Shown: one piece after another, positions 44,030 through 58,761 of the stretch | Layout of the letters: each line of letters begins with the position of its first letter | Numbering within the stretch: position 1 is the first letter of the stretch | IMG/VR virus record: IMGVR_UViG_3300028171_000090 | Span: 32,001 to 96,000 of that record | Strand: one strand, 5' to 3' | Length of the DNA stretch: 64,000 nt | Source of the DNA: a virus | Lineage: Duplodnaviria > Caudoviricetes | Position numbers and translations under genes: made by a program | The notes under the pieces: generated by a model | Told to the model about the DNA's origin: nothing | The model's database searches: none | What the model saw: only the letters and a program-made list of their open reading frames with translations

Positions 44030-44093
44030 TCTGTGAAGCTAGGCACTCATGTGTCTAGCTTTATATTATTTTTTCTTAGGAGGAAAAGAGGAT

Positions 44094-45750: not shown

Positions 45751-45774
45751 GGGATATTCCCTTATTGTCTTTTA
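45744..45774 (+). terminator. Hairpin/terminator
   Basis: GCAATAAGGGA-TAT-TCCCTTATTGT plus CTTTT. Confidence 0.6.
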
Positions 45775-45797
45775 TTAAGTCAAAGGGAGAGTTGGCT

Positions 45798-46424
45798 ATG
45801 AAATTAGACCCAAATACATTAAACTATTCTCAACGAGAAGCTTTTGATCAGTTATTACACCTCTGCTGGTATCACAAACCTAGCATGTTTACTACAGGTA
45901 AAACACGTGCAAGCAATGTTACTTCTTTAGCATATTATCTACATAACCATAGTAAGGGTAGACTAAGCTGGGAAGCAGCATGTGAAGTTGCAGAGGTTTG
46001 GTTTAATATACAATTAGAAATACCAATACATGATTGGGGATTTGAAATATATACTGATAATAAATATGAATTTTTAAAAGCTTGTCAACCTAGTAGTGTT
46101 ATGAATAATAGAACTGGGTTAGAAAAGAGAACTGAAAACATAGTTTTAAAAGGATTACCTACACAACACTTTTACAATTCCTCTTGTCAGGAAATGCCTG
46201 ATAAAGAGCCTAAACTAATTGTGGTATTAGAAAAAATAGAGATAAATGAATTAATATATGAGAGAGAGAAGGAGAATTATTATGTGGACAGCAGGAAAGA
46301 ATATCTTATGTATGACCATATGGCTTATCAGCCGAGACGTAACTGTCTCCGTCATGAGTACACAATACATATCTTTGAAGGATGTAGAGATAGATATGAG
46401 CTATTCCAAGGGGAAGGGATTTGA
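45798..46424 (+). CDS. Hypothetical; paralog of 46421..46963, weak member of array family A
   Basis: QREAF..LAYYLH vs QKEAF..WAYTLH; C-terminal YTIHIF; start moved to ATG 45798. Confidence 0.65.
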   Translation: MKLDPNTLNYSQREAFDQLLHLCWYHKPSMFTTGKTRASNVTSLAYYLHNHSKGRLSWEAACEVAEVWFNIQLEIPIHDWGFEIYTDNKYEFLKACQPSSVMNNRTGLEKRTENIVLKGLPTQHFYNSSCQEMPDKEPKLIVVLEKIEINELIYEREKENYYVDSRKEYLMYDHMAYQPRRNCLRHEYTIHIFEGCRDRYELFQGEGI

Positions 46425-46963
46425 GTCATATGTTCGTATACGATGATCACATTCAACAATTTAACAAATTTCAGAAAGAGGCATTCTTACCTCTAATGCA
46501 TTATCTACCAGATATAACTTCCCGTAGATCGGAACAGACCACAGCTATTATAAATCAATGGGCATATACATTACATGGAAGATGTGAAGCATTTTTACCA
46601 ATGTATGACGCGCACTATATTGCTGAGCGTTTATATCCATTGACAATTAGTAATAGTATTAATATTGTACCGATATTAATGGATAGAAAGTTCATGTTAG
46701 AATCGGGTATTCCAGGTCCACGTTCAACAAATTTATCGGATAGAGTGGATACTTGGTGTATTTATGGTGGTAGTGTAGATTGTTTCTATAATGGGAATAT
46801 TCCAGAGAATGATAGAGGTCCTATTGCATTTATTACACGAGCATTTTCAAATGTTAATACAATAGAGTTTAGTCTTCCATATCCTGTCGGAAAATTGAAA
46901 CCGGTTGAGCATCGACGTCCGATGTATTTCTTATACATATACGTACCACCTAAAATGAAGTGA
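46421..46963 (+). CDS. Array family A member
   Basis: TWCIYGG ... FLYIYVP. Confidence 0.7.
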   Translation: MSHMFVYDDHIQQFNKFQKEAFLPLMHYLPDITSRRSEQTTAIINQWAYTLHGRCEAFLPMYDAHYIAERLYPLTISNSINIVPILMDRKFMLESGIPGPRSTNLSDRVDTWCIYGGSVDCFYNGNIPENDRGPIAFITRAFSNVNTIEFSLPYPVGKLKPVEHRRPMYFLYIYVPPKMK

Positions 46964-46979
46964 AAGGGAGAGTTTTATT

Positions 46980-47456
46980 ATGCGAGTAAGTCAGTTTATA
47001 CCATACGAAGTGTTCGATACCCCAGCGGGTATCGAGCCATTATATCATTATTTAGAATTAGGTAATCTAGGATTGTCTAAAAAGAAGATTAATAAGATTA
47101 TCAATGCTTTAGATGACAACTGGACAAAATGTGTTCATGTTGGTATACATATTGGAAAGCATGGTATTCCTACATTCGAAGAGATGTCAGGGTATGCTTA
47201 CAAAGAAGTTGTAAAGCATGACAACGAGTATATATGCGACATGAAGCGCATTCATGTTCTTCTAGGAACGTTTGGTATTGGTATCCGTGCATGTAGTCGA
47301 GATGAGATGGAGGAAATATGTTACGGAGATTATAGTAAGCCAATCGTTACAAAGTCTACCTTTACAGAGATACGTAAGAGTGGAAAGCGTAATATACCAA
47401 AGGTTATGACAAGTATAGCTTTCCATATTTATATCCCTGGACCAGAAACGGAATAA
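46980..47456 (+). CDS. Array family A member
   Basis: VGIHIG ... FHIYIP. Confidence 0.75.
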   Translation: MRVSQFIPYEVFDTPAGIEPLYHYLELGNLGLSKKKINKIINALDDNWTKCVHVGIHIGKHGIPTFEEMSGYAYKEVVKHDNEYICDMKRIHVLLGTFGIGIRACSRDEMEEICYGDYSKPIVTKSTFTEIRKSGKRNIPKVMTSIAFHIYIPGPETE

Positions 47457-47469
47457 CGGTATTCTAAAA

Positions 47470-47488
47470 CATACATTATTTATATGAA
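47470..47488 (+). promoter_or_regulatory. Putative early promoter (variant)
   Basis: CATACATTATTTATATGAA. Confidence 0.5.
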
Positions 47489-47540
47489 TACAAGATAAAG
47501 TAAAAAGCTTTATCAATAATTTACTTGGAGGAATTATAAA

Positions 47541-48185
47541 ATGACAAGTTTAGACACAATCTTCAAACCGTATCGAAAGTGTGAAAGAATGAACAAACCG
47601 AAGCGTACTGACCTAACGGTCTTTACGATTAAAAACGCATTGCTTCAAGTATTACCGCGTAAACGCACATACTTCTTTGAAGGAAAGTATGATATGTTGG
47701 CGGGTAAAATTCATGCTCAAATCCAATCATTAGGAAAAACCATTGATGGATTCTACCTATATTATGGTACAGATGAGCATAATGATTTTGAGACTTATGG
47801 TATGGATGATATTCACCTATCTAGTAGAAGACCTGGGATGGATATCGCTGACACTGATTATGAAATGTTAAAAACAGTTATTATAGATGATGGTGATGTG
47901 CCTAGCCATCTACCTAAGCCGAAACTAGGTATGATGATGGCAGTAAATGTTGAGGAGCATTTTGCAAATGGACCGACTCGTAATCTTATCCCAGATTCAT
48001 TCCATTATGTATCACCAGTATGGGATAATACATTCTTTATGGTAACATTGTCTCACTATCGTCATTCTTCTTCTATCATGGAGCCTGATGGTGTGAAGGA
48101 TAAAGAATTTACTGCAAACTTTGTTCACATCTATGTTCCGAACGTGATGGCATCAGAATTAACACTGGATGGTGAATGGGAATGA
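47541..48185 (+). CDS. Array family A member
   Basis: IDGFYLYYG ... VHIYVP. Confidence 0.75.
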   Translation: MTSLDTIFKPYRKCERMNKPKRTDLTVFTIKNALLQVLPRKRTYFFEGKYDMLAGKIHAQIQSLGKTIDGFYLYYGTDEHNDFETYGMDDIHLSSRRPGMDIADTDYEMLKTVIIDDGDVPSHLPKPKLGMMMAVNVEEHFANGPTRNLIPDSFHYVSPVWDNTFFMVTLSHYRHSSSIMEPDGVKDKEFTANFVHIYVPNVMASELTLDGEWE

Positions 48186-48823
48186 AGAAGATAGTTGAAC
48201 TTAGAATATTAATAGAAGGCATCGTAGAAGAAGATAAAGGATTGAGAGCGGATATACATTCGCTCTCTTTAGATAATACATTATTGGTTCAATTCCATAA
48301 TAGAATTGTGGATAGTATTAACTCTAAATACATTTGGGATAAACTATCAATCATGGCACAGTATGTAATGGACCATTATGAACAGTTTGAATCATATGAT
48401 ATCGATATGGTCATGGCGAGAGCTGATGATATCATAGAAGCATTGAAAAAGGAAGACTCTAAACAATATGACAAATATAATAAATTTGACCCAATATTGA
48501 TAGCAGGTCAATTGCGAGCTGGCATACGAGTATTGGAAGGTGAGCGTATTATCTTTAATGATAACATGCATCAATATAGTATTTATATTGATAAAGATTA
48601 TGATAAATTAGAAAGTACAAGAAAGAAGCTAGAAGAGATTTCTAAATCATATCCGTATTGTACATTCTCTTTACAGACTCTTACGAATGATGGCATGGAT
48701 GTAATGGAAATCCAAGACGGGGAAACTAGATTCGGTAACGTTGATCATAATGTATTTAAAGGCGATTATAAACTAACAGATATAAATGTAAAAAAATTAA
48801 CGGAAGAGGGATGGCTAAGATGA
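48176..48823 (+). CDS. Paralog family B member 4
   Basis: FHNRIVDSIN, QYVMDHY, LEEISKSYP. Confidence 0.7.
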   Translation: MGMKKIVELRILIEGIVEEDKGLRADIHSLSLDNTLLVQFHNRIVDSINSKYIWDKLSIMAQYVMDHYEQFESYDIDMVMARADDIIEALKKEDSKQYDKYNKFDPILIAGQLRAGIRVLEGERIIFNDNMHQYSIYIDKDYDKLESTRKKLEEISKSYPYCTFSLQTLTNDGMDVMEIQDGETRFGNVDHNVFKGDYKLTDINVKKLTEEGWLR

Positions 48824-49335
48824 AAGGATTCTTTGTAACGGAGAAAATGAAGGAATTGTTCTTTGGAGGAATGCAGGAGTTGGTTGAGCCTACAGCTTTA
48901 GCAACAATTGATTCAGTAGCAACGCAAGAGTTAGAGAAAGATAAAACGATTAAAGAAATTACATTTTACTTTGGAGAAAAGGATTTAGATGATTTTAAGA
49001 ATACAGCTTGCTATACAAAAACAATGATGTCTACTATTCATGAAGGTGAGAATATCAAAATAGCAACACATAGCACAACTTGTAATGTATTGATCGGTCT
49101 TATTACAACAGGGGTACACCGAGAAACATCTACGATTATTAAGAAGCTATCAGGTGGCATCGATACAGAGAACTATCATAAATATGTATCATGTGAAATG
49201 GCTGACCAATTGGTTACAGTTATTAAGAATAATAAAGTAAATAAAACGGAAGATGGAGATAGAACACATACGGATGACCTAGGTACTGTACTAAGTATCT
49301 ATGTTCCTCAAGCGTATGTGATTGGAGAAGAATAG
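48820..49335 (+). CDS. Array family A member
   Basis: IKEITFYFG ... LSIYVP; start moved to ATG 48820. Confidence 0.75.
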   Translation: MKGFFVTEKMKELFFGGMQELVEPTALATIDSVATQELEKDKTIKEITFYFGEKDLDDFKNTACYTKTMMSTIHEGENIKIATHSTTCNVLIGLITTGVHRETSTIIKKLSGGIDTENYHKYVSCEMADQLVTVIKNNKVNKTEDGDRTHTDDLGTVLSIYVPQAYVIGEE

Positions 49336-49355
49336 GGAATCCCTATTCTTTTTTT
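49328..49355 (+). terminator. Intrinsic terminator
   Basis: AAGAATAGGG-AAT-CCCTATTCTT plus T-tract. Confidence 0.75.
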
Positions 49356-49417
49356 GTAATCATTTATGAATATCTGTACATCCATATAATAGAGAGAAAC
49401 CGGAGAGGGAGATATTC

Positions 49418-49957
49418 ATGACTGAAACAATAGAGATGAAACGATATGTACTACAACGCATCTTAACAAATAATATAAAAGAAATTAAGAAGGCGTTACA
49501 TAATCCAAAATTAGAAATACTAACATCAGAAGAATTATCTACCATCGTTAACGGTGCTTCATGTGAAGAATTAAATGAAGCGACTGTTATTTTTTATATT
49601 GGAAACGCTGATATTTATCGTTTCGAACATAGTGCTACATATAATGAAAATCAATTCGTATATAAGGACGTACCTGAAGTGAAAAAAACGGTAACGTCTG
49701 CAAAAGTAGTACGACCAGTACTGACCGACATGTCAGTTGGTTTTAAACGAAAACAAACAACTCATCGTACTCAGACTGGACAAATGCGTGACACGTCCAC
49801 TTCAGATAATTGCAAATCTGTATTCGATGTAAACAAGTTACATGTAATAGAAACATATGAAATGGATAAGACAGTCAAAGAACATCCGTCTTATCACTAT
49901 AAAGAAGATAGTAAAGTGTATCTTCATATTTACATTCCAGAGAGTAGAATCCGTTAA
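49418..49957 (+). CDS. Array family A member
   Basis: VIFYIG ... LHIYIP. Confidence 0.75.
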   Translation: MTETIEMKRYVLQRILTNNIKEIKKALHNPKLEILTSEELSTIVNGASCEELNEATVIFYIGNADIYRFEHSATYNENQFVYKDVPEVKKTVTSAKVVRPVLTDMSVGFKRKQTTHRTQTGQMRDTSTSDNCKSVFDVNKLHVIETYEMDKTVKEHPSYHYKEDSKVYLHIYIPESRIR

Positions 49958-49979
49958 GGATTCTACTTTTCTTTTTTTT
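49941..49979 (+). terminator. Intrinsic terminator
   Basis: AGTAGAATCC-N5-GGATTCTACT plus T-tract. Confidence 0.8.
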
Positions 49980-50000
49980 CGTAATAAAGATATAATTGAC

Positions 50001-50019
50001 TATATATTATAATAGTGAG
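50001..50019 (+). promoter_or_regulatory. Putative early promoter
   Basis: TATATATTATAATAGTGAG. Confidence 0.75.
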
Positions 50020-50030
50020 CACCATAAAAA

Positions 50031-50092
50031 AAGGTTGAATGTTATCCATGAAACATTACCTACTCAATTAAAACTTGAGTAAGAAAAGGGGA
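50031..50092 (+). promoter_or_regulatory. Double-hairpin 5' leader (diverged copy)
   Basis: AGGT..AATGTT-ATCCATGA-AACATT-ACCT, then ACTCAA-N7-TTGAGT, then RBS. Confidence 0.5.
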
Positions 50093-50095
50093 ACT

Positions 50096-50560
50096 ATGAA
50101 ATCGATTAAAGTATCACCTTCTCAAAACAAGCCATCGGAAGAACTCACTTCTGAAATGATGGTATTGTTAAAAGAACACATTTCCGCAGGAAAGCTTTCT
50201 AAAAAGAACTTTGAAGTTCTTAAAGTCGAGTTAGCGAAAGGTGACATTTCAGAATTACATGTATACGATAAATATATTGACGATTACAACCGTTTCTGTG
50301 GCGGTGCATGTACGACAGTTTATCGTCAAGATATGGGATATGTATGGATTCAACGAGTAAAAGTATTGACATCGGATATTATTATCGGTGCAAATGATGA
50401 CTACGATGATCCTTTTAGTGTAGGATTATTATCCCAGGTATCAGGTCGTTGCAAACAAAATCAATTTGCAGCAACTGTAACATACAACCATAAGATTCGA
50501 AAGGATCAGAGAGTTACAAAAATTGTTGTTATTAAATCACTTCATGTGTATTTAGGTTAG
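50096..50560 (+). CDS. Array family A member
   Basis: ISELHVYD ... LHVYLG; start moved to ATG 50096. Confidence 0.75.
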   Translation: MKSIKVSPSQNKPSEELTSEMMVLLKEHISAGKLSKKNFEVLKVELAKGDISELHVYDKYIDDYNRFCGGACTTVYRQDMGYVWIQRVKVLTSDIIIGANDDYDDPFSVGLLSQVSGRCKQNQFAATVTYNHKIRKDQRVTKIVVIKSLHVYLG

Positions 50561-50566
50561 TAACAC

Positions 50567-50599
50567 CTAGGAGAAGGGTCCCCATACCCTCCCTCCTAG
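50567..50599 (+). promoter_or_regulatory. Hairpin with CCAT-containing loop (diverged copy)
   Basis: CTAGGAG-A-AGGGT-CCCCAT-ACCCT-CC-CTCCTAG, no T-tract. Confidence 0.5.
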
Positions 50600-50686
50600 C
50601 TTACAATATAGATATAAAAACTATGGTCCGATATACCAGACAAATATCATTCATACAATTAAAGATTGTATGAGGAGGAGAAACTT

Positions 50687-51196
50687 ATGTTAAAAATCGA
50701 TACGAATTCAATTTTAAGAGTAACCGATGAAGTGGTACAAACTTCAGGGGAAGAGTATAAACAAGCATTTTTAAATCAAGGATTATTAAATAAAACTGAA
50801 GCAAATATGCTACATGGTATTTACACTAATCCACAAAATAAATTTACACATGTACGAGTGTACTTTGGAACAGTGCAAGGTGAGTTCTTTGCTTATGATG
50901 CATGCACAGCTAAATTCCATACTACACATCAAACATTTGCAAAACGAAATAAAACAGTTGAAGTAACTGTTCAATTTGGTACTGTGACTAAAGGGACTGA
51001 ATCTATTGACCGTACTGGCGCTAACTTAGAGAATTCCAATATGGTTCAAGCTGGATTCAAAGCTACAGATGTAACAGCAACAATTACTATCGAACGATTA
51101 CATGAAACGTTTGGACAGCAACGTGCTGCAATTGCATTACCTGTAACAACATTAAATATCTATATTCCGCAAGAACGTTTACAAGAAAATAAATAA
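50687..51196 (+). CDS. Array family A member
   Basis: HVRVYFG ... LNIYIPQER; start moved to ATG 50687. Confidence 0.8.
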   Translation: MLKIDTNSILRVTDEVVQTSGEEYKQAFLNQGLLNKTEANMLHGIYTNPQNKFTHVRVYFGTVQGEFFAYDACTAKFHTTHQTFAKRNKTVEVTVQFGTVTKGTESIDRTGANLENSNMVQAGFKATDVTATITIERLHETFGQQRAAIALPVTTLNIYIPQERLQENK

Positions 51197-51208
51197 TAAA
51201 AACATATA

Positions 51209-51273
51209 AAGGTTTGAGGGTTGTCCATAACAACCCTTACTATCTAATGAAAAATTAGATAGCTAAGAGGAGA
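51209..51273 (+). repeat. Conserved double-hairpin leader, copy 1
   Basis: AAGGTT..AGGGTTGT-CCATA-ACAACCCT..CTATCTAAT-GAAAA-ATTAGATAG-CTAAGAGGAGA. Confidence 0.85.
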
Positions 51274-51278
51274 AAACA

Positions 51279-51800
51279 ATGATCGAAATGACTACAGCAG
51301 ACGTATTAGAAGTAACAGAAAAAGAGATTTTAGAAAAAGGTAATGAGTGGGTAAATCACTTCTTTACTTTAGATTACGTTACATCTAATGAATTAGAAGC
51401 TTTAATGAATGTATATCGTGCACATACTATTAACAAAGTTGAAGTATACTTTGGTGCACGACATGTTGAAGAGTTCCTATTTAACGGTTGCACACAAAAA
51501 GAAATTCGCATGAAGAAACCTGGTGAAGAAGAATCTCGTGTAGTGAATATCTTCCCAGTTGCAGAATTTGGTGCAGTTAGTTTAGGAAACTATGTTGAAG
51601 TAAATCGTAACACTGTTGTGCATTCACGACCAATGATTAACTTTGACAATATCAATGCTACAGTTTGTCATCATACAAGTCGTAAAACAGTTCGTCGATT
51701 TGAAGTTGGACCTCGTAATAGAGCTTCACATTCACATGAAATTGTATTGCGTGTATACATTCCACAAGAACGTGTACGTCCAGGTCATGAAGTAAAGTAA
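51279..51800 (+). CDS. Array family A member (close paralog of 51882)
   Basis: VNHFFTL.Y.TSNE, VEVYFG, LRVYIPQ. Confidence 0.85.
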   Translation: MIEMTTADVLEVTEKEILEKGNEWVNHFFTLDYVTSNELEALMNVYRAHTINKVEVYFGARHVEEFLFNGCTQKEIRMKKPGEEESRVVNIFPVAEFGAVSLGNYVEVNRNTVVHSRPMINFDNINATVCHHTSRKTVRRFEVGPRNRASHSHEIVLRVYIPQERVRPGHEVK

Positions 51801-51811
51801 TATTATATAAT

Positions 51812-51876
51812 AAGGTTCGAGGGCTGTCCATAACAGCCCTCACTATCTAATGAAAAATTGGATAGCTAAGAGGAGA
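51812..51876 (+). repeat. Conserved double-hairpin leader, copy 2 (compensatory change)
   Basis: AGGGCTGT-CCATA-ACAGCCCT..CTATCTAAT-GAAAA-ATTGGATAG-CTAAGAGGAGA. Confidence 0.85.
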
Positions 51877-51881
51877 CGGCA

Positions 51882-52382
51882 ATGATTAAATTAACTACAG
51901 AAAAAGTACTAACAGTACAACCTATCGATATTCAAGAAATGGGTGAAGAGTATGTGAATCACTTCTTTACCTTAGGCTATATCACTTCTAACGAGTTTGA
52001 TGTTTTATTAGATGTATTTAAAGACAAAGAAATCGATATTGTTGAAGTGTATTTCGGAGGACGTCATAACGAAGCATTCCGTTTACAAGGATGTACTGAG
52101 AAAGAAATTGTTCGAGAACATAAGACTACAAGTCGAACTGATACAGTTAAAATTGAACCTGTATTAAACGATGTGGAAGTTGGAAGATATGTCGAATACA
52201 ATCGTAAACCATTATCGACCAATCAATTACCAGCATTTAATGCAGATCATCTTACTGCTACGGTATGCTCCCATGTCGGTCGTGGAGCGACACGTGGTTT
52301 TGGAGGCATTGTCACTCCTCATTCTATCCCGAGTTTCAGAGCATTGCGAGTATATATTCCTCAGAGTCGTTTATCTGAGTAA
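51882..52382 (+). CDS. Array family A member
   Basis: VEVYFG ... LRVYIPQ. Confidence 0.85.
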   Translation: MIKLTTEKVLTVQPIDIQEMGEEYVNHFFTLGYITSNEFDVLLDVFKDKEIDIVEVYFGGRHNEAFRLQGCTEKEIVREHKTTSRTDTVKIEPVLNDVEVGRYVEYNRKPLSTNQLPAFNADHLTATVCSHVGRGATRGFGGIVTPHSIPSFRALRVYIPQSRLSE

Positions 52383-52389
52383 TATAATG

Positions 52390-52422
52390 AAAGGTAGGTT
52401 CATTCCTACCTTTTATTTTTTT
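52390..52422 (+). terminator. Intrinsic terminator
   Basis: AAGGTAGG-N6-CCTACCTT plus T-tract. Confidence 0.75.
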
Positions 52423-52481
52423 GTCTGTTTTACTATGCTCCTGACCGTAAATCTATGTTCCGTAATAACCCCCTTTTCAGT

Positions 52482-52500
52482 TACATATTATATTAGTGAA
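52482..52500 (+). promoter_or_regulatory. Putative early promoter
   Basis: TACATATTATATTAGTGAA. Confidence 0.6.
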
Positions 52501-52540
52501 TACATCAAAACTATACTAATTATAAAGGGGATTTATTATT

Positions 52541-52852
52541 ATGAAAAAATTTACTGACTCAGAATTTTCAAGATTTATGCAGGAGAACGAAGCTTATGTT
52601 AACGGTACAATCATTAGAACTGGTATCTTAACTAAATTTGAAGTAGAAGAATTATTTGACGAAGTTACTTTAACTGACGATGTTGAGAACGTTATCTTCT
52701 ATACTGGTTTCAAAGATGGTGCAGCCTTTAAAGCCGCCGTTGAAGTACATGTCGTCCATCCATTAGATATCACCAAAGTATTTAAAGATAGGACAATCCA
52801 CATATTCATACCGCAGATGCGTATCATGAAGAGTGGATTAGGAGTAGCCTAA
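52541..52852 (+). CDS. Array family A, minimal member (103 aa)
   Basis: VIFYTG ... IHIFIPQ with very short middle. Confidence 0.75.
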   Translation: MKKFTDSEFSRFMQENEAYVNGTIIRTGILTKFEVEELFDEVTLTDDVENVIFYTGFKDGAAFKAAVEVHVVHPLDITKVFKDRTIHIFIPQMRIMKSGLGVA

Positions 52853-52874
52853 TTCTAGGTTATTCCTTTTTTTT
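52840..52874 (+). terminator. Intrinsic terminator
   Basis: GGAGTAGCCT/AGGTTATTCC (GU pairs) plus T8. Confidence 0.65.
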
Positions 52875-52910
52875 GTCTCCATTATGAACTCCCCACCCAT
52901 CTTCACTCTT

Positions 52911-52922
52911 AACAATATATTG
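52911..52922 (+). promoter_or_regulatory. Putative late promoter AACA-N6-TG for endolysin
   Basis: AACAATATATTG immediately followed by hairpin TGAGACAA-CAAAC-TTGTCTCA. Confidence 0.6.
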
Positions 52923-52968
52923 AGACAACAAACTTGTCTCATATCTTACTTAAAAGGAGTGGATATAT

Positions 52969-54015
52969 ATGGGTTTCATCGTTGATATTTCCCATCATAA
53001 TACTGTAGATTGGTCTTTAGCTAGTAAATACTTAGACTTAGCAATCATTCGTGTCCAATACGGTTCTAACACGGTTGATAGAAAGTATAAGTCTTTCGTT
53101 GAAGGCTGTAAACAATACGGTATTCCTTTCGGTCACTATGCATATGCTTTATTCGTAAGCGTCGAAGATGCTCGTGTGGAAGCACGTGACTTCATGAAAC
53201 GTGCGGATAAAGATGCGAAGTTCTTAGTTGTCGATGTAGAAGAATTGACAATCAAAGGACGCCCTGATTTAATGCTTCCTGCTACACAAGCTTACGTTGA
53301 TGAGTTACGTAAAGCAGGATGGAAAGTTGGCTTATACACTGGTCATCACGTATGGGATGAATTCCGTATGGATAAAGTGGATGCTGACTTCGTTTGGGTA
53401 CCACGTTACGGAGCTAACAAATCTCCTAACCCAGATGGTCCTAAACCAAAAATGCGTGTAGATATTTGGCAATATACTGAGTACGGTAACATTCCAGGTA
53501 TCCAAACACGTTCTGATGTAAATATGCTATTAGGTGATAAAACACTTGAATGGTATACTGGAGCGAGTGTTCCAACACCACCTCCAAGCATTGCACCTGA
53601 CAGTGGTAGTCTTGTTGATAAAAACGCAGGTCTTCCAATTGGTCGTGTAAAAGTAACTGGCACTGGTGTACGTTTACGTGAACAGCCATCTACAAATTCA
53701 AGAATCGTTAAAACACTTGATAAACTTGAGTATTTATACTACGGTTATGTCAAAGGTGAAGACGGTTACATTTGGTGGAACTTAGGTTCTGGATGGGTTC
53801 GTTCTGACGTAGGTGGAGACTTTATTTCTGGTGGAGCTGTAGTAACAGCATCTGTATTAAATGTACGTACAGGTCCAGGAACAAACTTCTCTATTAAGAA
53901 ACAACTTACAAGCGGTGCACAAGTACGCGTTTGGACACGTCAAGGTGATTGGTACTGCATCAATGATGACGAATGGGTTCATGGTGCATATATCACAGTT
54001 CGTGATAAATACTAA
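52969..54015 (+). CDS. Endolysin: GH25 muramidase (PlyB-like) + Pro-rich linker + two SH3b domains
   Basis: VDISHH, LVVDVEE, WQYT, DVN; VRLREQPST and LNVRTGPGT SH3b starts. Confidence 0.93.
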   Translation: MGFIVDISHHNTVDWSLASKYLDLAIIRVQYGSNTVDRKYKSFVEGCKQYGIPFGHYAYALFVSVEDARVEARDFMKRADKDAKFLVVDVEELTIKGRPDLMLPATQAYVDELRKAGWKVGLYTGHHVWDEFRMDKVDADFVWVPRYGANKSPNPDGPKPKMRVDIWQYTEYGNIPGIQTRSDVNMLLGDKTLEWYTGASVPTPPPSIAPDSGSLVDKNAGLPIGRVKVTGTGVRLREQPSTNSRIVKTLDKLEYLYYGYVKGEDGYIWWNLGSGWVRSDVGGDFISGGAVVTASVLNVRTGPGTNFSIKKQLTSGAQVRVWTRQGDWYCINDDEWVHGAYITVRDKY

Positions 54016-54017
54016 GA

Positions 54018-54050
54018 AAGAGAGTAGACTTCGGTCTACTCTTCTTTTTT
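54018..54050 (+). terminator. Intrinsic terminator (UUCG loop)
   Basis: GAGTAGAC-TTCG-GTCTACTC plus T-tract. Confidence 0.85.
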
Positions 54051-54108
54051 GTCATTTTTTAGAAATCATCCTACATTATATTGAGAAACCTTAGAGGAGG
54101 AAATAGAA

Positions 54109-54684
54109 ATGACGACAGACTTACATAAGGCTGAGAAAGTATATGAAAATATTCGCTTAGAGAATATAGATAAAGGACTTAATAAAATTACAAAATTATG
54201 TAGAGATGGCTCATTACTACATGAGCATCATGATATTATCTTAGATAGACTCGCACAAGGTGAAAAGGTTATCGATAGTATTGCAATCTTCGAAGGTCAG
54301 AATGATATGTTTACATTTATCGATGAGGCTACAAACAAGCACATATCTCGAATTGGTGTAAAACCATTCGATTCATTTGATACTCATAAAGTTACAGTAT
54401 TATTTGGAACTTATCAACCTAAAACAAGAAAAATTAAAAACTTTGCATATATGAATCGTAATGGTGTTATGCAAACTGAAATTATGGAATCATGTACCGC
54501 TTGTGATGAAGATGGTGTAGCAATTCCAATGTTTATAAATAATGTTATTATATGCGAAGTAGAAGTAGAAATAGCTACACGCCCAAATAATGAAATGCAA
54601 TGGTATAAACCTGCTGACGTTATGGGTGTTTACCGACATATTATGGTATATGTACCAACTACAGAAAAGGGAGAGAATAAATAA
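54109..54684 (+). CDS. Array family A member
   Basis: IDSIAIFEG ... IMVYVP. Confidence 0.75.
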   Translation: MTTDLHKAEKVYENIRLENIDKGLNKITKLCRDGSLLHEHHDIILDRLAQGEKVIDSIAIFEGQNDMFTFIDEATNKHISRIGVKPFDSFDTHKVTVLFGTYQPKTRKIKNFAYMNRNGVMQTEIMESCTACDEDGVAIPMFINNVIICEVEVEIATRPNNEMQWYKPADVMGVYRHIMVYVPTTEKGENK

Positions 54685-55289
54685 TGATTACACTATCAAA
54701 AGAACTTACATTACAACATATCGAGAAGGACGGGCTGGATAAATTCCTTCCTAAGAATTCATCATTACACTTCTCACAAGATCATACAGATGCAATTAAA
54801 ACATTACTACAAGATGATACATATGGACTTAAATTAGTACACTTATACGATGGTGGGGATTGCTCATTATTCTCGAAGGACTTCTTAGACTTCGCATTTA
54901 AGTGTATTGATATGGATGAAACAGTTCCTACGAATATGCAATACCCTGTGGGAGAAGTTCCAAATATCTCTGAAATTATTGGTAATAAAACTACCACTCG
55001 ACGAGTGGATATCGTTAAGGGTGCTGACGCTATTCTTAAAGGTAATAAATGTATCCATACGTCACAGAAAATGACACATACTGGACAATTGGAAATCATG
55101 ACAACTACATCCGAAAAACTTACTAAGTTCCCGGGTAAAAAAGAGATTATTATTGCACTAGTAAAAGATTATGAATCTCATCGTATATTTGCAGAACGCT
55201 CTGCTACAAGTACGAAACCTGAATACTCATTACATATTCTAATGCCAGGTACCTTATTTGAAGAATTTACAGAAAGTGAGGAGAACTAG
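54684..55289 (+). CDS. Array family A member
   Basis: LVHLYDG ... LHILMP. Confidence 0.75.
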   Translation: MITLSKELTLQHIEKDGLDKFLPKNSSLHFSQDHTDAIKTLLQDDTYGLKLVHLYDGGDCSLFSKDFLDFAFKCIDMDETVPTNMQYPVGEVPNISEIIGNKTTTRRVDIVKGADAILKGNKCIHTSQKMTHTGQLEIMTTTSEKLTKFPGKKEIIIALVKDYESHRIFAERSATSTKPEYSLHILMPGTLFEEFTESEEN

Positions 55290-55290
55290 T

Positions 55291-55830
55291 ATGCATATAT
55301 TTGGAGACGGACTAGAACATATTGGTCAATTAATAAAAACAATGCAAGCACGATATGATCACATGGTAGAGAATAATATCATATCGGAAATGGATAGAAA
55401 TATTACAGCTACATTACTGAAGAACTTATCATCTGATAAGTTTCTTCGTTTTGTATATCATCATAAAGATGATATTAACTCTCAAGAAATGTCTATCACT
55501 GACGTATTATATAATGAAAAGTATTACGGTAAAAATGATGAGTGTATGGAGATGTCAAGTATCTTTGTAAAGGCTATTGATAGTGATATTGAATTTGGTG
55601 ATAAGCATATTCGCCAGACAGTAGAGACTATTTTTGGTAAAACACGTCAGACTCTCATTGCTGATACAGATAAAGAATTTGAGAACTTTGATATTGAGAA
55701 GCCTCATATCTTTATTAGAACAATTACTCGTTGCGTAAAAGAGTTAACTACAGGAAAAGAGCATGATGAAGTGTATAATGAACTACATGTATATCAGCCT
55801 AATATTAACCCTACAATTCCAGTAGAATAA
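55291..55830 (+). CDS. Array family A member
   Basis: LRFVYH ... LHVYQP; start moved to ATG 55291. Confidence 0.7.
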   Translation: MHIFGDGLEHIGQLIKTMQARYDHMVENNIISEMDRNITATLLKNLSSDKFLRFVYHHKDDINSQEMSITDVLYNEKYYGKNDECMEMSSIFVKAIDSDIEFGDKHIRQTVETIFGKTRQTLIADTDKEFENFDIEKPHIFIRTITRCVKELTTGKEHDEVYNELHVYQPNINPTIPVE

Positions 55831-55855
55831 AAAACGTAACAAATGTGTATTCAGT

Positions 55856-55874
55856 CATACATTATATTAGTGAG
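55856..55874 (+). promoter_or_regulatory. Putative early promoter
   Basis: CATACATTATATTAGTGAG. Confidence 0.75.
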
Positions 55875-55887
55875 TAAGCCATTAATA

Positions 55888-55948
55888 AAGGTTTTAGGGT
55901 TGTCCATAACAACCCTCCCCCATACTTATAAGGTATGGAGATAAGGAG
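55888..55948 (+). repeat. Conserved double-hairpin leader, copy 3
   Basis: AAGGTT..AGGGTTGT-CCATA-ACAACCCT, then a different second stem CCATAC-N7-GTATGG, then AAGGAG. Confidence 0.8.
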
Positions 55949-55955
55949 CTAAGAA

Positions 55956-56426
55956 ATGGAATTATACGTAAGAGAAGAACTTATGAAGTACAATGAATCT
56001 ATGATCCCGCATGGCGGATTAATGAAAGATTCAGAAAAGAAAGTATTAGTTTCACACTTAAAGAAGAATGATGATATCACAGGAGTTCGCTTCTTCTTTG
56101 GGAATGGAGAGTTATCGCCATTCAAGAAACTAGCGTGCTATGACAGTAACTTTAAACAAACGTCTGACCGAATGGAAATGCGTCGTATTAAAGTCTTATC
56201 AGGTAACGTGTCAGTAGGAAAAGTGGAAGACTCAGTCTATCCAAAGTATCAACCCAATAGTGAAAAACGAAGCGAATGCTTCGTTGATTCTAATCAGTTT
56301 ACTATGACCCTAGCAGAAGATTTAGTTGGAGTTATACATGCTGACAAAATGAAATATAGAGGCGATGGAAGTATTATGTATATACACATTCCAGAGAATC
56401 GCATTCTGCAAGCAGAACAGGGATAA
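55956..56426 (+). CDS. Array family A member
   Basis: ITGVRFFFG ... MYIHIPENR. Confidence 0.75.
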   Translation: MELYVREELMKYNESMIPHGGLMKDSEKKVLVSHLKKNDDITGVRFFFGNGELSPFKKLACYDSNFKQTSDRMEMRRIKVLSGNVSVGKVEDSVYPKYQPNSEKRSECFVDSNQFTMTLAEDLVGVIHADKMKYRGDGSIMYIHIPENRILQAEQG

Positions 56427-56472
56427 AGCTAAAAGCTTTATCCTACTAATTTATTTGAGGAGAGATATTACA

Positions 56473-56973
56473 ATGAAAACACTATCACATGATGAAACAT
56501 TACACTCACTATTCTCACCGAACGTATTAGGTTTAAAAGACTTTATGTTAATGCATAATGAATTACACGTTCTACTCGCAACATTACACAAAGAAAAATT
56601 TGACTTAGTTCATATATACTCGGATCGAAATGAAGCGTATTCTAAAACACAAAAGTTTATAGATAATGCTTTAACTCGTATGTTAGTAAAATATGTATCA
56701 GTGACTGAACCAGATACTAAAATTACGTATGCTACAGCAAATTATGTATTATACGGAGAAGCTACATGCGGTTCATTAGAGTTTGCGGATGTAGCCTATG
56801 ATTGTCTTATGGAGCATCCACGTATAGGAGAAGTCGAACGACCTCATGTACAAGGAACTTTAAATGAAAGCAAGTTACAAATTGTTCAGGTAAATCGTTA
56901 TGGAACGAATGACGATGGGCAAGAACATGACCTCAAAGAATTACACATTTATATTCCTAATAATCGTATATAG
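56473..56973 (+). CDS. Array family A member
   Basis: LVHIYSD ... LHIYIPNNR; start moved to ATG 56473. Confidence 0.75.
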   Translation: MKTLSHDETLHSLFSPNVLGLKDFMLMHNELHVLLATLHKEKFDLVHIYSDRNEAYSKTQKFIDNALTRMLVKYVSVTEPDTKITYATANYVLYGEATCGSLEFADVAYDCLMEHPRIGEVERPHVQGTLNESKLQIVQVNRYGTNDDGQEHDLKELHIYIPNNRI

Positions 56974-57043
56974 GTTTATCAATGGTAACACCGGATGGAG
57001 ATAAAACTCCATCCGATAATATAATAGAAAGAGGTTATTAAAA

Positions 57044-57598
57044 ATGACTATTCTAACTAAAGAGGTGGCTTTACAATCATTAGACAGTAATGTGATTTTG
57101 GGAATTAGAGGATTTCAACCAGCTGAGAATGTAATTGCAGTTCTACGGCATCAATTGCAGTTCAGTAATATTATAGATGATGTAGCGGTATACATGGGAT
57201 ACAAGGAGTATCCTGTATTCACTATGCACGCTACCACAAAAAGAGATGGCATATACAAGCTTGATGGTGGGACATTAGAAATAAAGCAAAAGGTAACACC
57301 GGAATGGTTACTCATTCCAAAAGACATCAAGATTCCAGACACACATGTAAATGCGGCGGTTATATTCGATCCATTCAATAGTGGTCGATGTGTGGATGTT
57401 GATATCGATGTCAGAGGTGAGTCAAAAGACTATGACCCTAAAAATCTCCATGAGAATATTTTAATCATTCGAGTCACACATTCCTATCAGACTCTGGAAA
57501 ATGAAGAAGTAACTGATTCGGATATTAAGTCCAGGTTACATGTCTATATACCAGATACCGTTATGGAATTGTGTTACAACTACAGAGGGATAAAATAA
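57044..57598 (+). CDS. Array family A member
   Basis: IDDVAVYMG ... LHVYIP. Confidence 0.75.
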   Translation: MTILTKEVALQSLDSNVILGIRGFQPAENVIAVLRHQLQFSNIIDDVAVYMGYKEYPVFTMHATTKRDGIYKLDGGTLEIKQKVTPEWLLIPKDIKIPDTHVNAAVIFDPFNSGRCVDVDIDVRGESKDYDPKNLHENILIIRVTHSYQTLENEEVTDSDIKSRLHVYIPDTVMELCYNYRGIK

Positions 57599-57611
57599 GG
57601 GGGAAATAATA

Positions 57612-58136
57612 ATGACTACATTAAAACATGAAGAAGCATTCTTATCAATATTTGGACCAAGACCTTTTGGGATTAGTAGATTAGAATTAGGAGACGGAGA
57701 TAGATCAGCATTCATAGGTGTTTTCACAACACATCATATTGATGCAGTACACATTTATGCTGATGCCGCAGAAAGAGGTCCTGCATATCGCAAGTTCCTA
57801 TCAAATGCATGTACAGGAAGAGACTTCACATATACAATGATGGAGGATGGAAAAGAAGTAACAATCCGTCATGTGGCTATGCCTGTAGTGATAATCGGAG
57901 ATATTAAAATAACAAAAGCAAAAGCAAAAGCATCATTCCAAGCATATGGATATGGTTATAATTATGATACAGAAATCATCGAAGGTGTAAATATCGTCGA
58001 GGGTAAAACATTTGAAATTGGAAACATAGAAGATTTTGGTACACGTAACTTATTTGCAACTATGATCGTTAGGGAAGTAACGAGAGAAGAACAACCAATA
58101 AGTTTACATTATGAATTACACGTTTGTTTAACATAA
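57612..58136 (+). CDS. Array family A member
   Basis: IDAVHIYAD ... ELHVCL. Confidence 0.7.
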   Translation: MTTLKHEEAFLSIFGPRPFGISRLELGDGDRSAFIGVFTTHHIDAVHIYADAAERGPAYRKFLSNACTGRDFTYTMMEDGKEVTIRHVAMPVVIIGDIKITKAKAKASFQAYGYGYNYDTEIIEGVNIVEGKTFEIGNIEDFGTRNLFATMIVREVTREEQPISLHYELHVCLT

Positions 58137-58158
58137 CTAATTAGGAGGAATTTTAACA

Positions 58159-58665
58159 ATGTCGGAATTAAAAAATTATAAAACACTTAATATGGCGGAA
58201 CGAAAGGCGATTTTAATCGGAACGATTATCAAGCGTACGCGAGGTGCATTAACTAAATCTCAGATTGAAGCTGTAGTGAGTAATATGGATGTGATGGAAC
58301 AATACAGAATTAACGTATATGAAACTTCAAAGAAATTTGCTGAAAAATGTTTTGATAAAGATATTACTAAATCTAAAGCAGGTAACACAGTACCAACTTA
58401 CGTAAAACAATATTGCCGTGTAATCGTAGGTAATGTAGAAGTAGGTAAGAAGATTGAGAAGGAAGCTACTTTCTATAGTCAAGCTGAAAGTAAATTACAA
58501 TTACCAAACTTCTCAGTTGATGAAGTAGCAGTAATTGAGATTACAAGTAAAGACCCTAACTTTGATAAGATGCATAAAGAAGTTGCAATCTACTTACCAG
58601 AGGGTCAACCATATAAAATGGATAAAGAGATAGAAATCATTACGAAGTTATTTGACATCGTTTAA
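58159..58665 (+). CDS. Array family A member
   Basis: RINVYE ... VAIYLP. Confidence 0.75.
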   Translation: MSELKNYKTLNMAERKAILIGTIIKRTRGALTKSQIEAVVSNMDVMEQYRINVYETSKKFAEKCFDKDITKSKAGNTVPTYVKQYCRVIVGNVEVGKKIEKEATFYSQAESKLQLPNFSVDEVAVIEITSKDPNFDKMHKEVAIYLPEGQPYKMDKEIEIITKLFDIV

Positions 58666-58676
58666 TGATTAGGGGG

Positions 58677-58709
58677 AGGGTAAGCAAAAGCTTACCCTTA
58701 TTTTTTTTT
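58677..58709 (+). terminator. Intrinsic terminator
   Basis: AGGGTAAGC-AAAA-GCTTACCCT plus T-tract. Confidence 0.85.
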
Positions 58710-58742: not shown

Positions 58743-58761
58743 TATACATTATAGTAGCGAA
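58743..58761 (+). promoter_or_regulatory. Putative early promoter for RNAP beta gene
   Basis: TATACATTATAGTAGCGAA. Confidence 0.65.

What the first reader, a model, noticed from the sequence alone, without database searches (positions are those of the whole stretch)
45798..58665. Array of about 18-20 highly diverged paralogs with conserved ends and a hypervariable core
Nearly every gene from 46.4 to 58.7 kb shows an N-terminal helix, then a strand hxhYxG, then a variable beta-rich middle, then a terminal strand L(H/R)(I/V)Y(I/V)P. Examples: FHIYIP, VHIYVP, LSIYVP, LNIYIP, LRVYIP twice, IHIFIP, IMVYVP, LHILMP, LHVYQP, MYIHIP, LHVYIP, VAIYLP. 52541 is a 103-aa minimal scaffold, and 51279/51882 look like a recent duplication. 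Early-type promoter motifs punctuate the array. A fixed scaffold with variable inserts resembles a binder repertoire, for example an anti-defence or host-takeover library under diversifying selection. I do not recognise the family.
Basis: partly seen in the sequence, partly recalled or inferred. Interest (0 to 1): 0.8.

Follow-up and report, generated by a model that had tools for sequence, protein, structure and literature searches.

The report
Early paralog array, unknown fold, jumbo phage
An uncultured soil jumbo phage related to Bacillus phage AR9 gives about 12 kb, between its recombinase and RNA polymerase genes, to 16-18 old, diverged copies of one small protein with no recognisable fold, probably made at the start of infection; what the copies bind is unknown.

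Summary
A strict C-terminal motif [LIVMF]x[IV][YF][IVLM]P sits at the tail of 13 array ORFs and in no other ORF of 90 aa or more in the window (0.024 expected by shuffling).

Leave-one-out HMMs and profile-profile tests give 16 firm members. 55258 is probable and 46421 is doubtful. 45765, 48176 and the GH25 lysin are not members.

The family is absent from Pfam, PHROGs, NCBIfam, PADLOC and PDB sequences. It has 42 hits among 1.84 billion representatives: this phage's own proteins, its sister phages, one false positive (an F5/8-type-C repeat protein), and rare 2-3-repeat proteins of endospore-forming Clostridia.

AlphaFold gives a very confident model (pLDDT 95.7). It is a beta-alpha-alpha-beta-alpha core closed by the LxIYIP strand, with a variable beta-meander inserted. 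No known fold matches it (best Z 3.9). A homodimer is predicted (0.72 against 0.00 for controls).

AR9-type early promoters and terminators divide the array into about 5-6 units.

The paralogs are ancient. Each keeps positional orthologues in four related phages. dN/dS is 0.08-0.45 and is about 0.25 in core and meander alike, so ongoing diversifying selection is not shown. The array proteins still diverge far faster than the neighbouring core genes.

Best reading: a lineage-specific set of early, cytoplasmic, dimeric binding proteins used for host takeover or counter-defence. Function is untested.

The scan had noted this family before, on this same stretch.

The parts
46980..47456 (+). family member (158 aa, tail FHIYIP)
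   Evidence: hhalign of its orthologue group against the rest of the family: 94% probability, E 9e-8 over 127 columns. Orthologues in L005, L007, L008 and L020.
47541..48185 (+). family member (214 aa, VHIYVP)
   Evidence: Leave-one-out E 0.004. hhalign 90.5%.
48811..49335 (+). family member (about 171 aa from ATG 48820, LSIYVP)
   Evidence: Leave-one-out E 6e-10.
49418..49957 (+). family member (179 aa, LHIYIP)
   Evidence: Leave-one-out E 2e-9.
50075..50560 (+). family member (about 154 aa from ATG 50096, tail LHVYLG without the Pro); absent from sister L005
   Evidence: Leave-one-out E 3e-7. No L005 hit.
50687..51196 (+). family member (169 aa, LNIYIP); this is the protein that was modelled
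   Evidence: Leave-one-out E 4e-13. AF2 pLDDT 95.7, pTM 0.89. Homodimer score 0.72 against control 0.00.
51279..51800 (+). family member (173 aa, LRVYIP)
   Evidence: Leave-one-out E 1e-16. 44% identical to 51882.
51882..52382 (+). family member (166 aa, LRVYIP); old duplicate of 51279, absent from L005
52541..52852 (+). minimal member (103 aa, IHIFIP): alpha/beta core without the beta-meander; the most conserved copy (96% identity to L005, dN/dS 0.08)
   Evidence: hhalign 96%. AF2 pLDDT 84. dN/dS.
54109..54684 (+). family member (191 aa, IMVYVP)
   Evidence: Leave-one-out E 1e-6.
54684..55289 (+). family member (201 aa, LHILMP)
   Evidence: hhalign 92.7%.
55258..55830 (+). probable divergent member (about 179 aa from ATG 55291, LHVYQP)
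   Evidence: Leave-one-out E 2.2. hhalign only 20%, E 0.001 over 147 columns. In the tree it groups with the dispersed copy at -13027.
55956..56426 (+). family member (156 aa, MYIHIP)
   Evidence: Leave-one-out E 2e-8.
56473..56973 (+). family member (166 aa, LHIYIP); absent from sister L007
   Evidence: Leave-one-out E 1e-8. Gene lists.
57044..57598 (+). family member (184 aa, LHVYIP)
   Evidence: Leave-one-out E 7e-8.
57612..58136 (+). family member (174 aa, tail LHVCLT)
   Evidence: Leave-one-out E 3e-7.
58159..58665 (+). family member (168 aa, VAIYLP, with an extra C-terminal helix)
   Evidence: hhalign 91%.
46421..46963 (+). doubtful member (180 aa, LYIYVP tail only)
   Evidence: Leave-one-out E 1.4. 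hhalign 5.7%, covering only 19 tail columns.
45765..46424 (+). not a member (219 aa); a different small family, with two paralogs in L020
   Evidence: hhalign 0.7%. L020 matches.
48176..48823 (+). not a member (215 aa, acidic)
   Evidence: hhalign 0.2%.
52969..54015 (+). GH25 + SH3_3 lysin embedded in the array, with its own terminator and an AR9-late-type AACA-N6-TG at 52911
   Evidence: Pfam hits on the orthologues. Motif, terminator. The short late motif is also expected by chance.
47470..47486 (+). early-type promoter motif
   Evidence: consensus from PMC5312081.
50001..50017 (+). early-type promoter motif
52482..52498 (+). early-type promoter motif
55856..55872 (+). early-type promoter motif
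58743..58759 (+). early-type promoter motif before the nvRNAP beta gene (marks the end of the array)
49940..49970 (+). intrinsic terminator
   Evidence: 24 terminator-like sites found against 4.9 in shuffles.
52386..52417 (+). intrinsic terminator
52840..52867 (+). intrinsic terminator
54020..54043 (+). intrinsic terminator after the lysin
58676..58699 (+). intrinsic terminator closing the array
51206..51278 (+). double-hairpin leader with invariant TTGTCCATAACAA before 51279
   Evidence: the outer stem covaries across phages.
51809..51881 (+). same leader before 51882
55885..55955 (+). same first hairpin before 55956

Best explanation
The array is a lineage-specific multigene family. It has 16-18 tandem copies, plus 2-3 dispersed ones, of a single small cytoplasmic domain. 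The domain is an alpha/beta core (beta1-alpha1-alpha2-beta2[hxhYxG]-alpha3 ... last strand [LxIYIP]-short helix). A beta-meander of very variable length and sequence is inserted between alpha3 and the last strand.

Inferred from promoter motifs: the genes are transcribed at the start of infection by the injected virion RNA polymerase, in about 5-6 promoter-to-terminator units.

Inferred from the model only: the proteins form symmetric homodimers.

Inferred from several lines: each paralog uses its own meander surface to bind a different host or phage macromolecule, and the set serves host takeover or counter-defence. The lines are that only structural residues are conserved, that each paralog is kept as its own orthologous lineage under purifying selection, and that the copies nevertheless evolve several times faster than core genes.

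Shown here: homology, predicted fold, order, conservation pattern and distribution. Not shown: expression timing, dimerisation, any target.
For: Motif statistics.

Homology: leave-one-out HMM and hhalign.

Predicted structure: confident AF2 models of a full member and of the minimal member, sharing the same core order.

Conserved residues: no conserved polar or catalytic set; nearly invariant residues are F and P only.

Localisation: no TM segment or signal-like hydrophobic stretch; pI mostly 5-7.

Transcription units: five exact AR9-architecture early promoter motifs, all intergenic on the + strand (PMC5312081 read), and strong terminators between the units.

Homodimer model: score 0.72, best of 3 controls 0.00. 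The mark was reached by 20 of 30 proteins solved as pairs of one chain and by 1 of 23 solved as single chains. The runs agree in at least 87% of contacts and the partner pLDDT is at least 89. My own alignment was used, so the calibration counts hold only roughly.

Cellular homologues are 2-3 tandem fusions of the same domain, which fits self-association.

Each paralog has positional orthologues with about 100/99 support on long stems, and 17 collinear members are present in the divergent phage L020.

dN/dS is 0.08-0.45.

Array proteins are 25-59% identical where RNAP beta and the lysin are 77-86%.

Presence or absence of 3-4 members differs among sister phages.
Against: No functional evidence of any kind, and no target is known.

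The early class is inferred from a motif resembling AR9's. It was not measured for this phage.

The predicted dimer interface is not better conserved among orthologues than the rest of the protein (0.56 against 0.60, permutation p 0.76).

dN/dS is equal in core and meander (about 0.25). The classic arms-race signature on the variable surface is therefore absent, although pairwise region averages cannot exclude site-specific selection.

Half of the members are as conserved as core genes (dN/dS 0.08-0.17), which fits housekeeping roles as well as it fits counter-defence.

Both AF2 models used family alignments, so they are not independent proofs that all members share the fold.
Confidence: 0.5

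Rival explanations
1. The proteins are self-assembling structural or scaffold proteins. The domain is a building block that homo- or hetero-oligomerises into a larger intracellular assembly during infection. The cellular tandem-repeat homologues would play a similar role in spore-coat or mother-cell structures.
For: Predicted symmetric homodimer. Cellular homologues fuse 2-3 domains in one chain with acidic tails. P0045 lies between spoIIID and yabG-veg-sipL, which are coat-morphogenesis genes. P0044 lies near spoVT.
Against: Seventeen distinct, individually conserved paralogs are hard to explain as one building block. Early-type rather than late-type promoters. The family is absent from AR9 and other relatives that build similar particles. 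A third bacterial locus has a housekeeping context. Sporulation genes are numerous in spore-formers, so the neighbourhood may be chance.
Confidence: 0.15
2. The proteins modulate sporulation. The domain was taken from (or given to) endospore-forming Bacillota, and the phage copies mimic or titrate a host sporulation component, steering spore formation or phage entrapment in spores.
For: The only non-phage homologues are in Clostridia (an uncultured Eubacteriales MAG). Two of the three loci with context sit beside sporulation genes. Phage and bacterial domain profiles match at 95.8% probability, E 8e-9.
Against: The context evidence is weak and comes from another class than Bacilli. The bacterial proteins are themselves uncharacterised. 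The upstream region of P0045 shows no evident sporulation-sigma-type promoter by eye. Nothing links the phage copies to sporulation directly.
Confidence: 0.1
3. The proteins are regulators of the phage's own transcription or DNA transactions, for example specificity factors for the two phage RNA polymerases. Their position immediately upstream of the nvRNAP beta gene would fit this.
For: The array sits between the UvsX-like recombinase and nvRNAP beta. Large phages do expand putative transcription-factor families, for example about 35 Zn-ribbon copies in Bacillus phage G (PMC7824862).
Against: No DNA-binding domain is detected. Most members are acidic or neutral. AR9, with the same polymerases, lacks the family.
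Confidence: 0.08
4. The array is a hypervariable, actively diversifying library (accordion or mutagenic type), in which copies turn over quickly.
For: Variable middle region. Presence or absence of a few copies among sisters. A co-occurring strain in one run diverges at gene or terminator boundaries at 50558 and 54042, suggesting gene-wise recombination.
Against: Long stems between the paralog groups, and positional orthology across four phages. dN/dS below 1 everywhere and equal in core and meander. Some copies are 95-96% identical between sisters.
Confidence: 0.05
5. The shared ends are a compositional coincidence, or the ORFs are not genes.
For: None beyond the low pairwise identity (mean about 18%).
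Against: motif statistics; profiles; purifying selection; orthologues.
Confidence: 0.01

Closest known systems
Uncharacterised 2-3-repeat proteins of endospore-forming Clostridia (P0032, P0041, P0044, P0045, P0025, P0031; no Pfam family, no name)
   Same: True homologues of the domain: phage-only profile against bacterial-repeat profile gives 95.8% probability, E 8e-9 over 136 columns. They share the helix LT..E, the F, the V-L-x-G-x-x-x-x-G hairpin, and the repeat-closing strand h-h-I-Y-[IL]-P.
   Different: They are tandem fusions in one chain with acidic tails, and chromosomal. They have extra invariant residues (R, GD, DF, Q) that the phage copies lack. They are rare: 8 proteins in 5.8 billion clusters.
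Host-takeover module of Bacillus phage SPO1 (about 24 small early genes with many early promoters and terminators; recalled from the literature on SPO1, not read here)
   Same: A compact block of about 20 small genes in a large Bacillus-type phage, cut into several early promoter-terminator units. Works like: early host-directed proteins.
   Different: The SPO1 genes are not paralogs of one fold and use host sigma-A promoters. Here there is one fold in many copies, with virion-RNAP-type promoters. No sequence relation was found.
Lineage-specific multigene families of large viruses (about 35 Zn-ribbon copies in Bacillus phage G, PMC7824862; accordion-type families of poxviruses and giant viruses, PMC13359090)
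   Same: One domain expanded to tens of copies in one viral lineage, with copy-number differences between close relatives.
   Different: A different and undescribed fold. The copies here are ancient and positionally fixed, not recently amplified.
RsfS / iojap ribosome-silencing factors (small alpha/beta proteins)
   Same: This is the only recurring theme among the weak structural matches. Eight of the 40 rows for the minimal-core model are RsfS, iojap or MALSU1-type chains, and 3ups also appears for the full model.
   Different: Z is only 2.0-3.1 with rmsd above 4 A, far below what the tool regards as meaningful. There is no sequence signal. It is a lead only.

Membership tests
The LxIYIP family defined here (no accession) | Significant profile match when the tested protein and its orthologues are left out of the model | tested here: met
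   11 members by leave-one-out HMM (E below 1e-5) and 5 more by hhalign (90-96%). 55258 is weak (20%), 46421 is not met (5.7%), and 45765 and 48176 are not met (below 1%).
The LxIYIP family defined here (no accession) | C-terminal strand h-x-[IV]-[YF]-h-P closing the core sheet, and an internal strand h-x-h-[YF]-x-G | tested here: met
   13 strict and 18 loose tails. The strand is modelled at residues 153-160 in the block with mean pLDDT 98.
The LxIYIP family defined here (no accession) | Shared three-dimensional fold in all members | tested here: inconclusive
   Two members were modelled with the same core order, but both used family alignments.
Any Pfam, PHROGs, NCBIfam or PADLOC family, or a PDB sequence | Score above the family threshold | tested here: not met
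   No hit near any threshold.
Any solved or predicted fold (PDB, BFVD, ESM Atlas) | Structural match covering the domain | tested here: inconclusive
   Foldseek found none at E of 0.001 or below. VIA-align best Z is 3.9 for the full model and 2.9 for the core. Atlas TM by query is at most 0.45. A missing match does not prove the fold is new.
RsfS/iojap (PF02410) | Sequence model match and binding to ribosomal protein uL14 | tested here: inconclusive
   No Pfam hit. Fold Z is 2.0-3.1 only. Binding was not tested.
AR9-type early (virion-RNAP) transcription class | Promoter consensus A/T-rich element ...ATATTAT followed by N6 and a G start (PMC5312081) | tested here: met
   Five exact matches to [TC]A[TC]A[TC]ATTAT-N6-[GA] in intergenic gaps on the + strand. 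The contig-wide consensus is TATACATTATATAGGTGAG.
AR9-type early (virion-RNAP) transcription class | Transcripts present within minutes of infection and independent of protein synthesis | not testable with these tools
   The phage is uncultured. The RNA-labelled runs hold the whole phage as contigs of more than 100 kb, so they cannot show transcription.
Anti-defence or host-takeover proteins | Demonstrated inhibition of a host system, or growth arrest on expression | not testable with these tools
   No assay and no anti-defence library was at hand.

The most novel reading that the evidence does not exclude
A protein fold not yet seen in solved structures is shared between rare tandem-repeat proteins of endospore-forming Clostridia (two of three loci sit beside sporulation genes) and one clade of AR9-like jumbo phages. 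In the phages it has been multiplied into about 20 individually conserved early genes. These would form a set of dimeric, surface-variable binders, each disabling a different host process (defence, sporulation, translation), making it a phage counterpart of the multigene immune-evasion families of large eukaryotic viruses.
Probability: 0.25. Interest if true: 0.8.

Novelty: new variant of a known kind. Interest (0 to 1): 0.55.

Why it matters
Jumbo phages carry hundreds of genes of unknown function, and it is unclear what most of that extra DNA is for. Here about 12 kb of a jumbo phage relative of the 230-250-kb AR9 type is spent on one undescribed domain kept in about 17 distinct, old, individually conserved versions, probably expressed first in infection.

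If these are target-specific binders, the array is a ready-made panel of natural probes for host processes in Bacillota. It would also be a clean case for studying how a viral multigene family is built and maintained.

The confident model without any structural match suggests a new fold worth solving. The homology to Clostridial repeat proteins in sporulation neighbourhoods gives an unexpected cellular entry point to its function.

Tried and rejected
- Megablast of the array and tblastn of member 51882 against 50,697 phage records found nothing.
- AR9 gp086 and gp087, the only genes in the syntenic gap of AR9, show no motif.
- A profile search of the complete AR9 genome and of a complete 254-kb IMG/VR relative found no match.
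- A local HMM search of the syntenic loci L001, L003, L004, L015 and L016 gave a best E of about 1.
- ESM Atlas feature search returned only low-score PDC/Cache-like leads, which I did not pursue. For P0045 it returned nothing usable.
- P0034, a hit of the big profile search, is an F5/8-type-C repeat protein and a false positive.
- The search for related loci with alignments failed for lack of a conserved stretch.
- Expression: 21 soil 'metatranscriptome' runs hold the array, but they assemble the phage as contigs of more than 100 kb at flat depth. DNA is probably present in them, so nothing about transcription, ends or levels can be said. Contig breaks in run X5 did not follow the predicted units.
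- Interface-conservation test of the dimer model: no enrichment.
- The C-terminal motif as a floppy docking tag or degron, like the peptide tags noted elsewhere in this genome: rejected, because the motif is a buried core strand modelled at high confidence.
- A second broad profile search added no new lineage.

Full report
WHAT THE WINDOW IS

The window lies on a 125-kb virus contig. The ORF at 58807-60867 is the C-terminal half of a multisubunit RNA polymerase beta subunit. It is 39-40% identical to the non-virion RNAP subunit of Bacillus phages AR9 and PBS1. The ORF at 44049-45380 is the UvsX-like recombinase.

In AR9 these two genes are separated only by an early promoter and two small genes, gp086 and gp087. 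Neither of those shows the motifs discussed here. In this phage the same gap holds about 13 kb. Public runs that hold the sequence are soil metagenomes.

THE OBSERVATION

All genes from 45.4 to 58.7 kb are on the + strand. The strict tail motif [LIVMF]x[IV][YF][IVLM]P occurs in 13 of them, always in the last 35 residues, and in none of the other 75 ORFs of 90 aa or more in the window. Shuffling the residues of the array proteins gives 0.024 such tails on average. A looser motif gives 18 observed against 0.70 expected. So the pattern is real and far beyond chance.

WHICH GENES BELONG

Pairwise BLAST links only a few members, so I used profiles.

- In a leave-one-out test, eleven proteins are found at E below 1e-5 by a model built without them.
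- Five more (46980, 47541, 52541, 54684, 58159) are confirmed at 90-96% probability. Here the small alignment of a protein with its orthologues is compared with the rest of the family.
- 55258 is weak (20%).
- 46421 matches only at the tail (5.7%).
- 45765, 48176 and a negative control score below 1%.
- The lysin at 52969-54015 carries GH25 and SH3_3 domains in its orthologues.

The array therefore has 16 firm members, one probable and one doubtful. Two to three further copies lie elsewhere on the contig.

WHAT THE PROTEIN LOOKS LIKE

A 46-row alignment gave an AlphaFold model of 50687-51196 with mean pLDDT 95.7 and pTM 0.89. The order of elements is:

- strand 10-13;
- helices 14-30 and 36-47;
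- strand 55-60, which carries hxhYxG;
- helix 65-72;
- a run of long beta hairpins from 74 to 149;
- the closing strand 153-160, which carries LxIYIP;
- a short helix with the conserved Arg.

The 103-aa member 52541 models as the same core without the hairpin run (pLDDT 84).

Conservation is concentrated in the core elements and in one hairpin (V-L-x-G-x-x-x-x-G). Nearly invariant residues are one Phe and the Pro, and there is no conserved polar set. There is no hydrophobic segment typical of membrane or secreted proteins, and most members are mildly acidic.

IS THE FOLD KNOWN?

- Pfam, PHROGs, NCBIfam, PADLOC and a profile search of all PDB sequences gave nothing.
- Foldseek against the PDB and BFVD gave no match at E of 0.001 or below.
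- The Foldseek-independent aligner gave a best Z of 3.9 for the full model and 2.9 for the core. The tool states that unmatched models typically still reach 7-8.
- The ESM Atlas gave TM by query of at most 0.45.
- The only recurring theme among the weak rows is the RsfS/iojap type of small alpha/beta protein. I record it as a lead, not a finding.

DISTRIBUTION

A profile search of 1.84 billion representatives found 42 proteins. They are the window's own proteins, orthologues from sister phages, a few more divergent phage members, one false positive, and five longer proteins. The longer ones are 2-3 tandem repeats of the same domain, each repeat ending in h-h-I-Y-[IL]-P. A phage-only profile matches the repeat profile at 95.8% probability, E 8e-9.

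These repeat proteins are chromosomal:

- one is in an uncultured Eubacteriales MAG, next to cmk, rpsA and bipA;
- one lies between spoIIID and yabG-veg-sipL;
- one lies near spoVT and AbrB-like genes.

They too are rare and unnamed. AR9, a complete 254-kb IMG/VR relative, and the syntenic loci of other relatives lack the family.

EVOLUTION

Four related phages carry the syntenic block UvsX - small genes - lysin - small genes - RNAP beta:

- L007, a 234-kb contig;
- L005, 101 kb;
- L020, a more divergent 230-kb contig;
- the fragments L006, L008 and L009, which belong to the L020 lineage.

In a maximum-likelihood tree, each window paralog groups with its positional orthologues at about 100/99 support. 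The stems between paralog groups are 1-2.4 substitutions per site. The duplications are therefore old and each copy has been retained.

Copy content still varies:

- 50075 and 51882 are missing in L005;
- 56473 is missing in L007;
- L005 has an extra copy after the lysin.

Between the window and L005, flanking genes have dN/dS of 0.03-0.13. Array members range from 0.08 to 0.45, with amino-acid identity from 47 to 96%. Pooled over 14 pairs, dN/dS is about 0.25 in the N-terminal core, the meander and the tail alike.

Against L020, RNAP beta is 77% identical and the lysin 86%, while the 17 collinear members are only 25-59% identical. The family thus evolves fast but under purifying selection. 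I see no signature of selection focused on the variable region.

Very uneven dS among members (0.2 to 2.5) suggests gene-wise recombination between lineages. So do strain contigs that diverge at gene or terminator boundaries at 50558 and 54042. This was not tested further.

EXPRESSION SIGNALS

The contig has a strong consensus, TATACATTATATAGGTGAG. It has the same layout as the experimentally mapped AR9 early promoter AAATATATATTAT-N6-G, which is read by the injected virion polymerase (PMC5312081). Five exact matches lie in intergenic gaps of the array on the + strand. Strong terminators (24 found, 4.9 expected) close the units.

The embedded lysin has its own terminator and an AR9-late-type AACA-N6-TG. 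That short motif is also expected by chance.

A double-hairpin leader with an invariant TTGTCCATAACAA and a covarying outer stem precedes three members here and the corresponding genes in all relatives. It occurs nowhere else on the contig.

SELF-ASSOCIATION

Two copies of 50687-51196 gave a symmetric interface score of 0.72. The best of 3 controls was 0.00. The mark was reached by 20 of 30 proteins solved as pairs of one chain and by 1 of 23 solved as single chains. The runs agree in at least 87% of contacts and the partner pLDDT is at least 89. My own alignment was used, so the calibration holds only roughly.

The interface uses helix 3 and meander strands. It is not better conserved among orthologues than the rest of the protein, so support is from the model only. 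The tandem-fused cellular forms fit self-association.

INTERPRETATION

Shown here:
- a real, old, lineage-restricted family of a predicted new fold;
- a fixed core and a variable insert;
- a fixed gene order;
- placement under early-type promoters.

Inferred: early cytoplasmic dimeric binders with paralog-specific targets, used for host takeover or counter-defence (confidence 0.5).

The rivals, none of which is excluded, are a self-assembling scaffold, sporulation modulation, and regulators of phage transcription. An actively diversifying library and a chance pattern are rejected.

COMPARISON WITH THE KNOWN

The array works like the SPO1 host-takeover block in layout, and like viral multigene families in evolution. 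It is a member of no described family. Its only homologues are uncharacterised Clostridial repeat proteins.

The scan had already noted this family on this same stretch (note e1-5408052) and the leader RNA (note e1-5408045). I tested both points independently.

Noticed in passing
window 51206-51278, 51809-51881, 55885-55955; L005 10534 and 15282; L007 9338, 9941 and 14018; L006 2262 and 3628; L008 3732 and 4364; L009 2000: A leader RNA sits before a subset of array genes. It consists of AAGGTTT, a 6-7-bp stem, the invariant TTGTCCATAACAA, the closing stem, a second hairpin, and then the RBS. The outer stem covaries between phages (GAGGGT/ACCCTT, GTATAT/ATATAT, ACTAT/ATAGT). There are only three copies on the 125-kb contig, all in the array. 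It is far better conserved than the coding sequences it precedes.
   Followed up: partly
window 52969-54015 with 52911-52922: A GH25 + SH3_3 lysin sits in the middle of the early array in all relatives. It is 86-91% identical while its neighbours are 25-67%. It has its own terminator and an AR9-late-type AACA-N6-TG motif, so it appears to be a late gene nested between early units.
   Followed up: partly
window 45765-46424 and 48176-48823; L020 1567-2163 and 2156-2776; L005 726-1370: Two other small gene families share the block. 45765 has two paralogs in L020 and a conserved FQGEGI end, and shows the highest dN/dS in the region (0.68). 48176 has a 29%-identical paralog upstream of UvsX in L005.
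   Followed up: no
L011 9009-15172; L018 10001-17151: The Clostridial tandem-repeat homologues lie beside spoIIID, yabG, veg and sipL in one genome, and near spoVT and three AbrB/MazE-like genes in another. They may be undescribed sporulation-associated proteins.
   Followed up: partly
window 50558, 54042, 55472 (run X5): Contigs of a co-occurring strain match the window up to these points and then diverge. The points are the end of gene 50075, the lysin terminator, and a site inside 55258. This suggests mosaic exchange of single array genes between strains in one soil sample.
   Followed up: no
runs X2, X3, X5 (labelled metatranscriptomic): Libraries recorded as RNA assemble this phage into contigs of 116-243 kb at flat depth. 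They therefore probably contain phage DNA and should not be read as evidence of expression.
   Followed up: partly
contig positions -13605..-12500 and 76187..76696 (window-relative): Dispersed family copies lie outside the array. -13027 has 82% hhalign probability, with a possible adjacent copy at -13605. 76187 has 69%, and an early-type promoter motif lies at 76004.
   Followed up: partly
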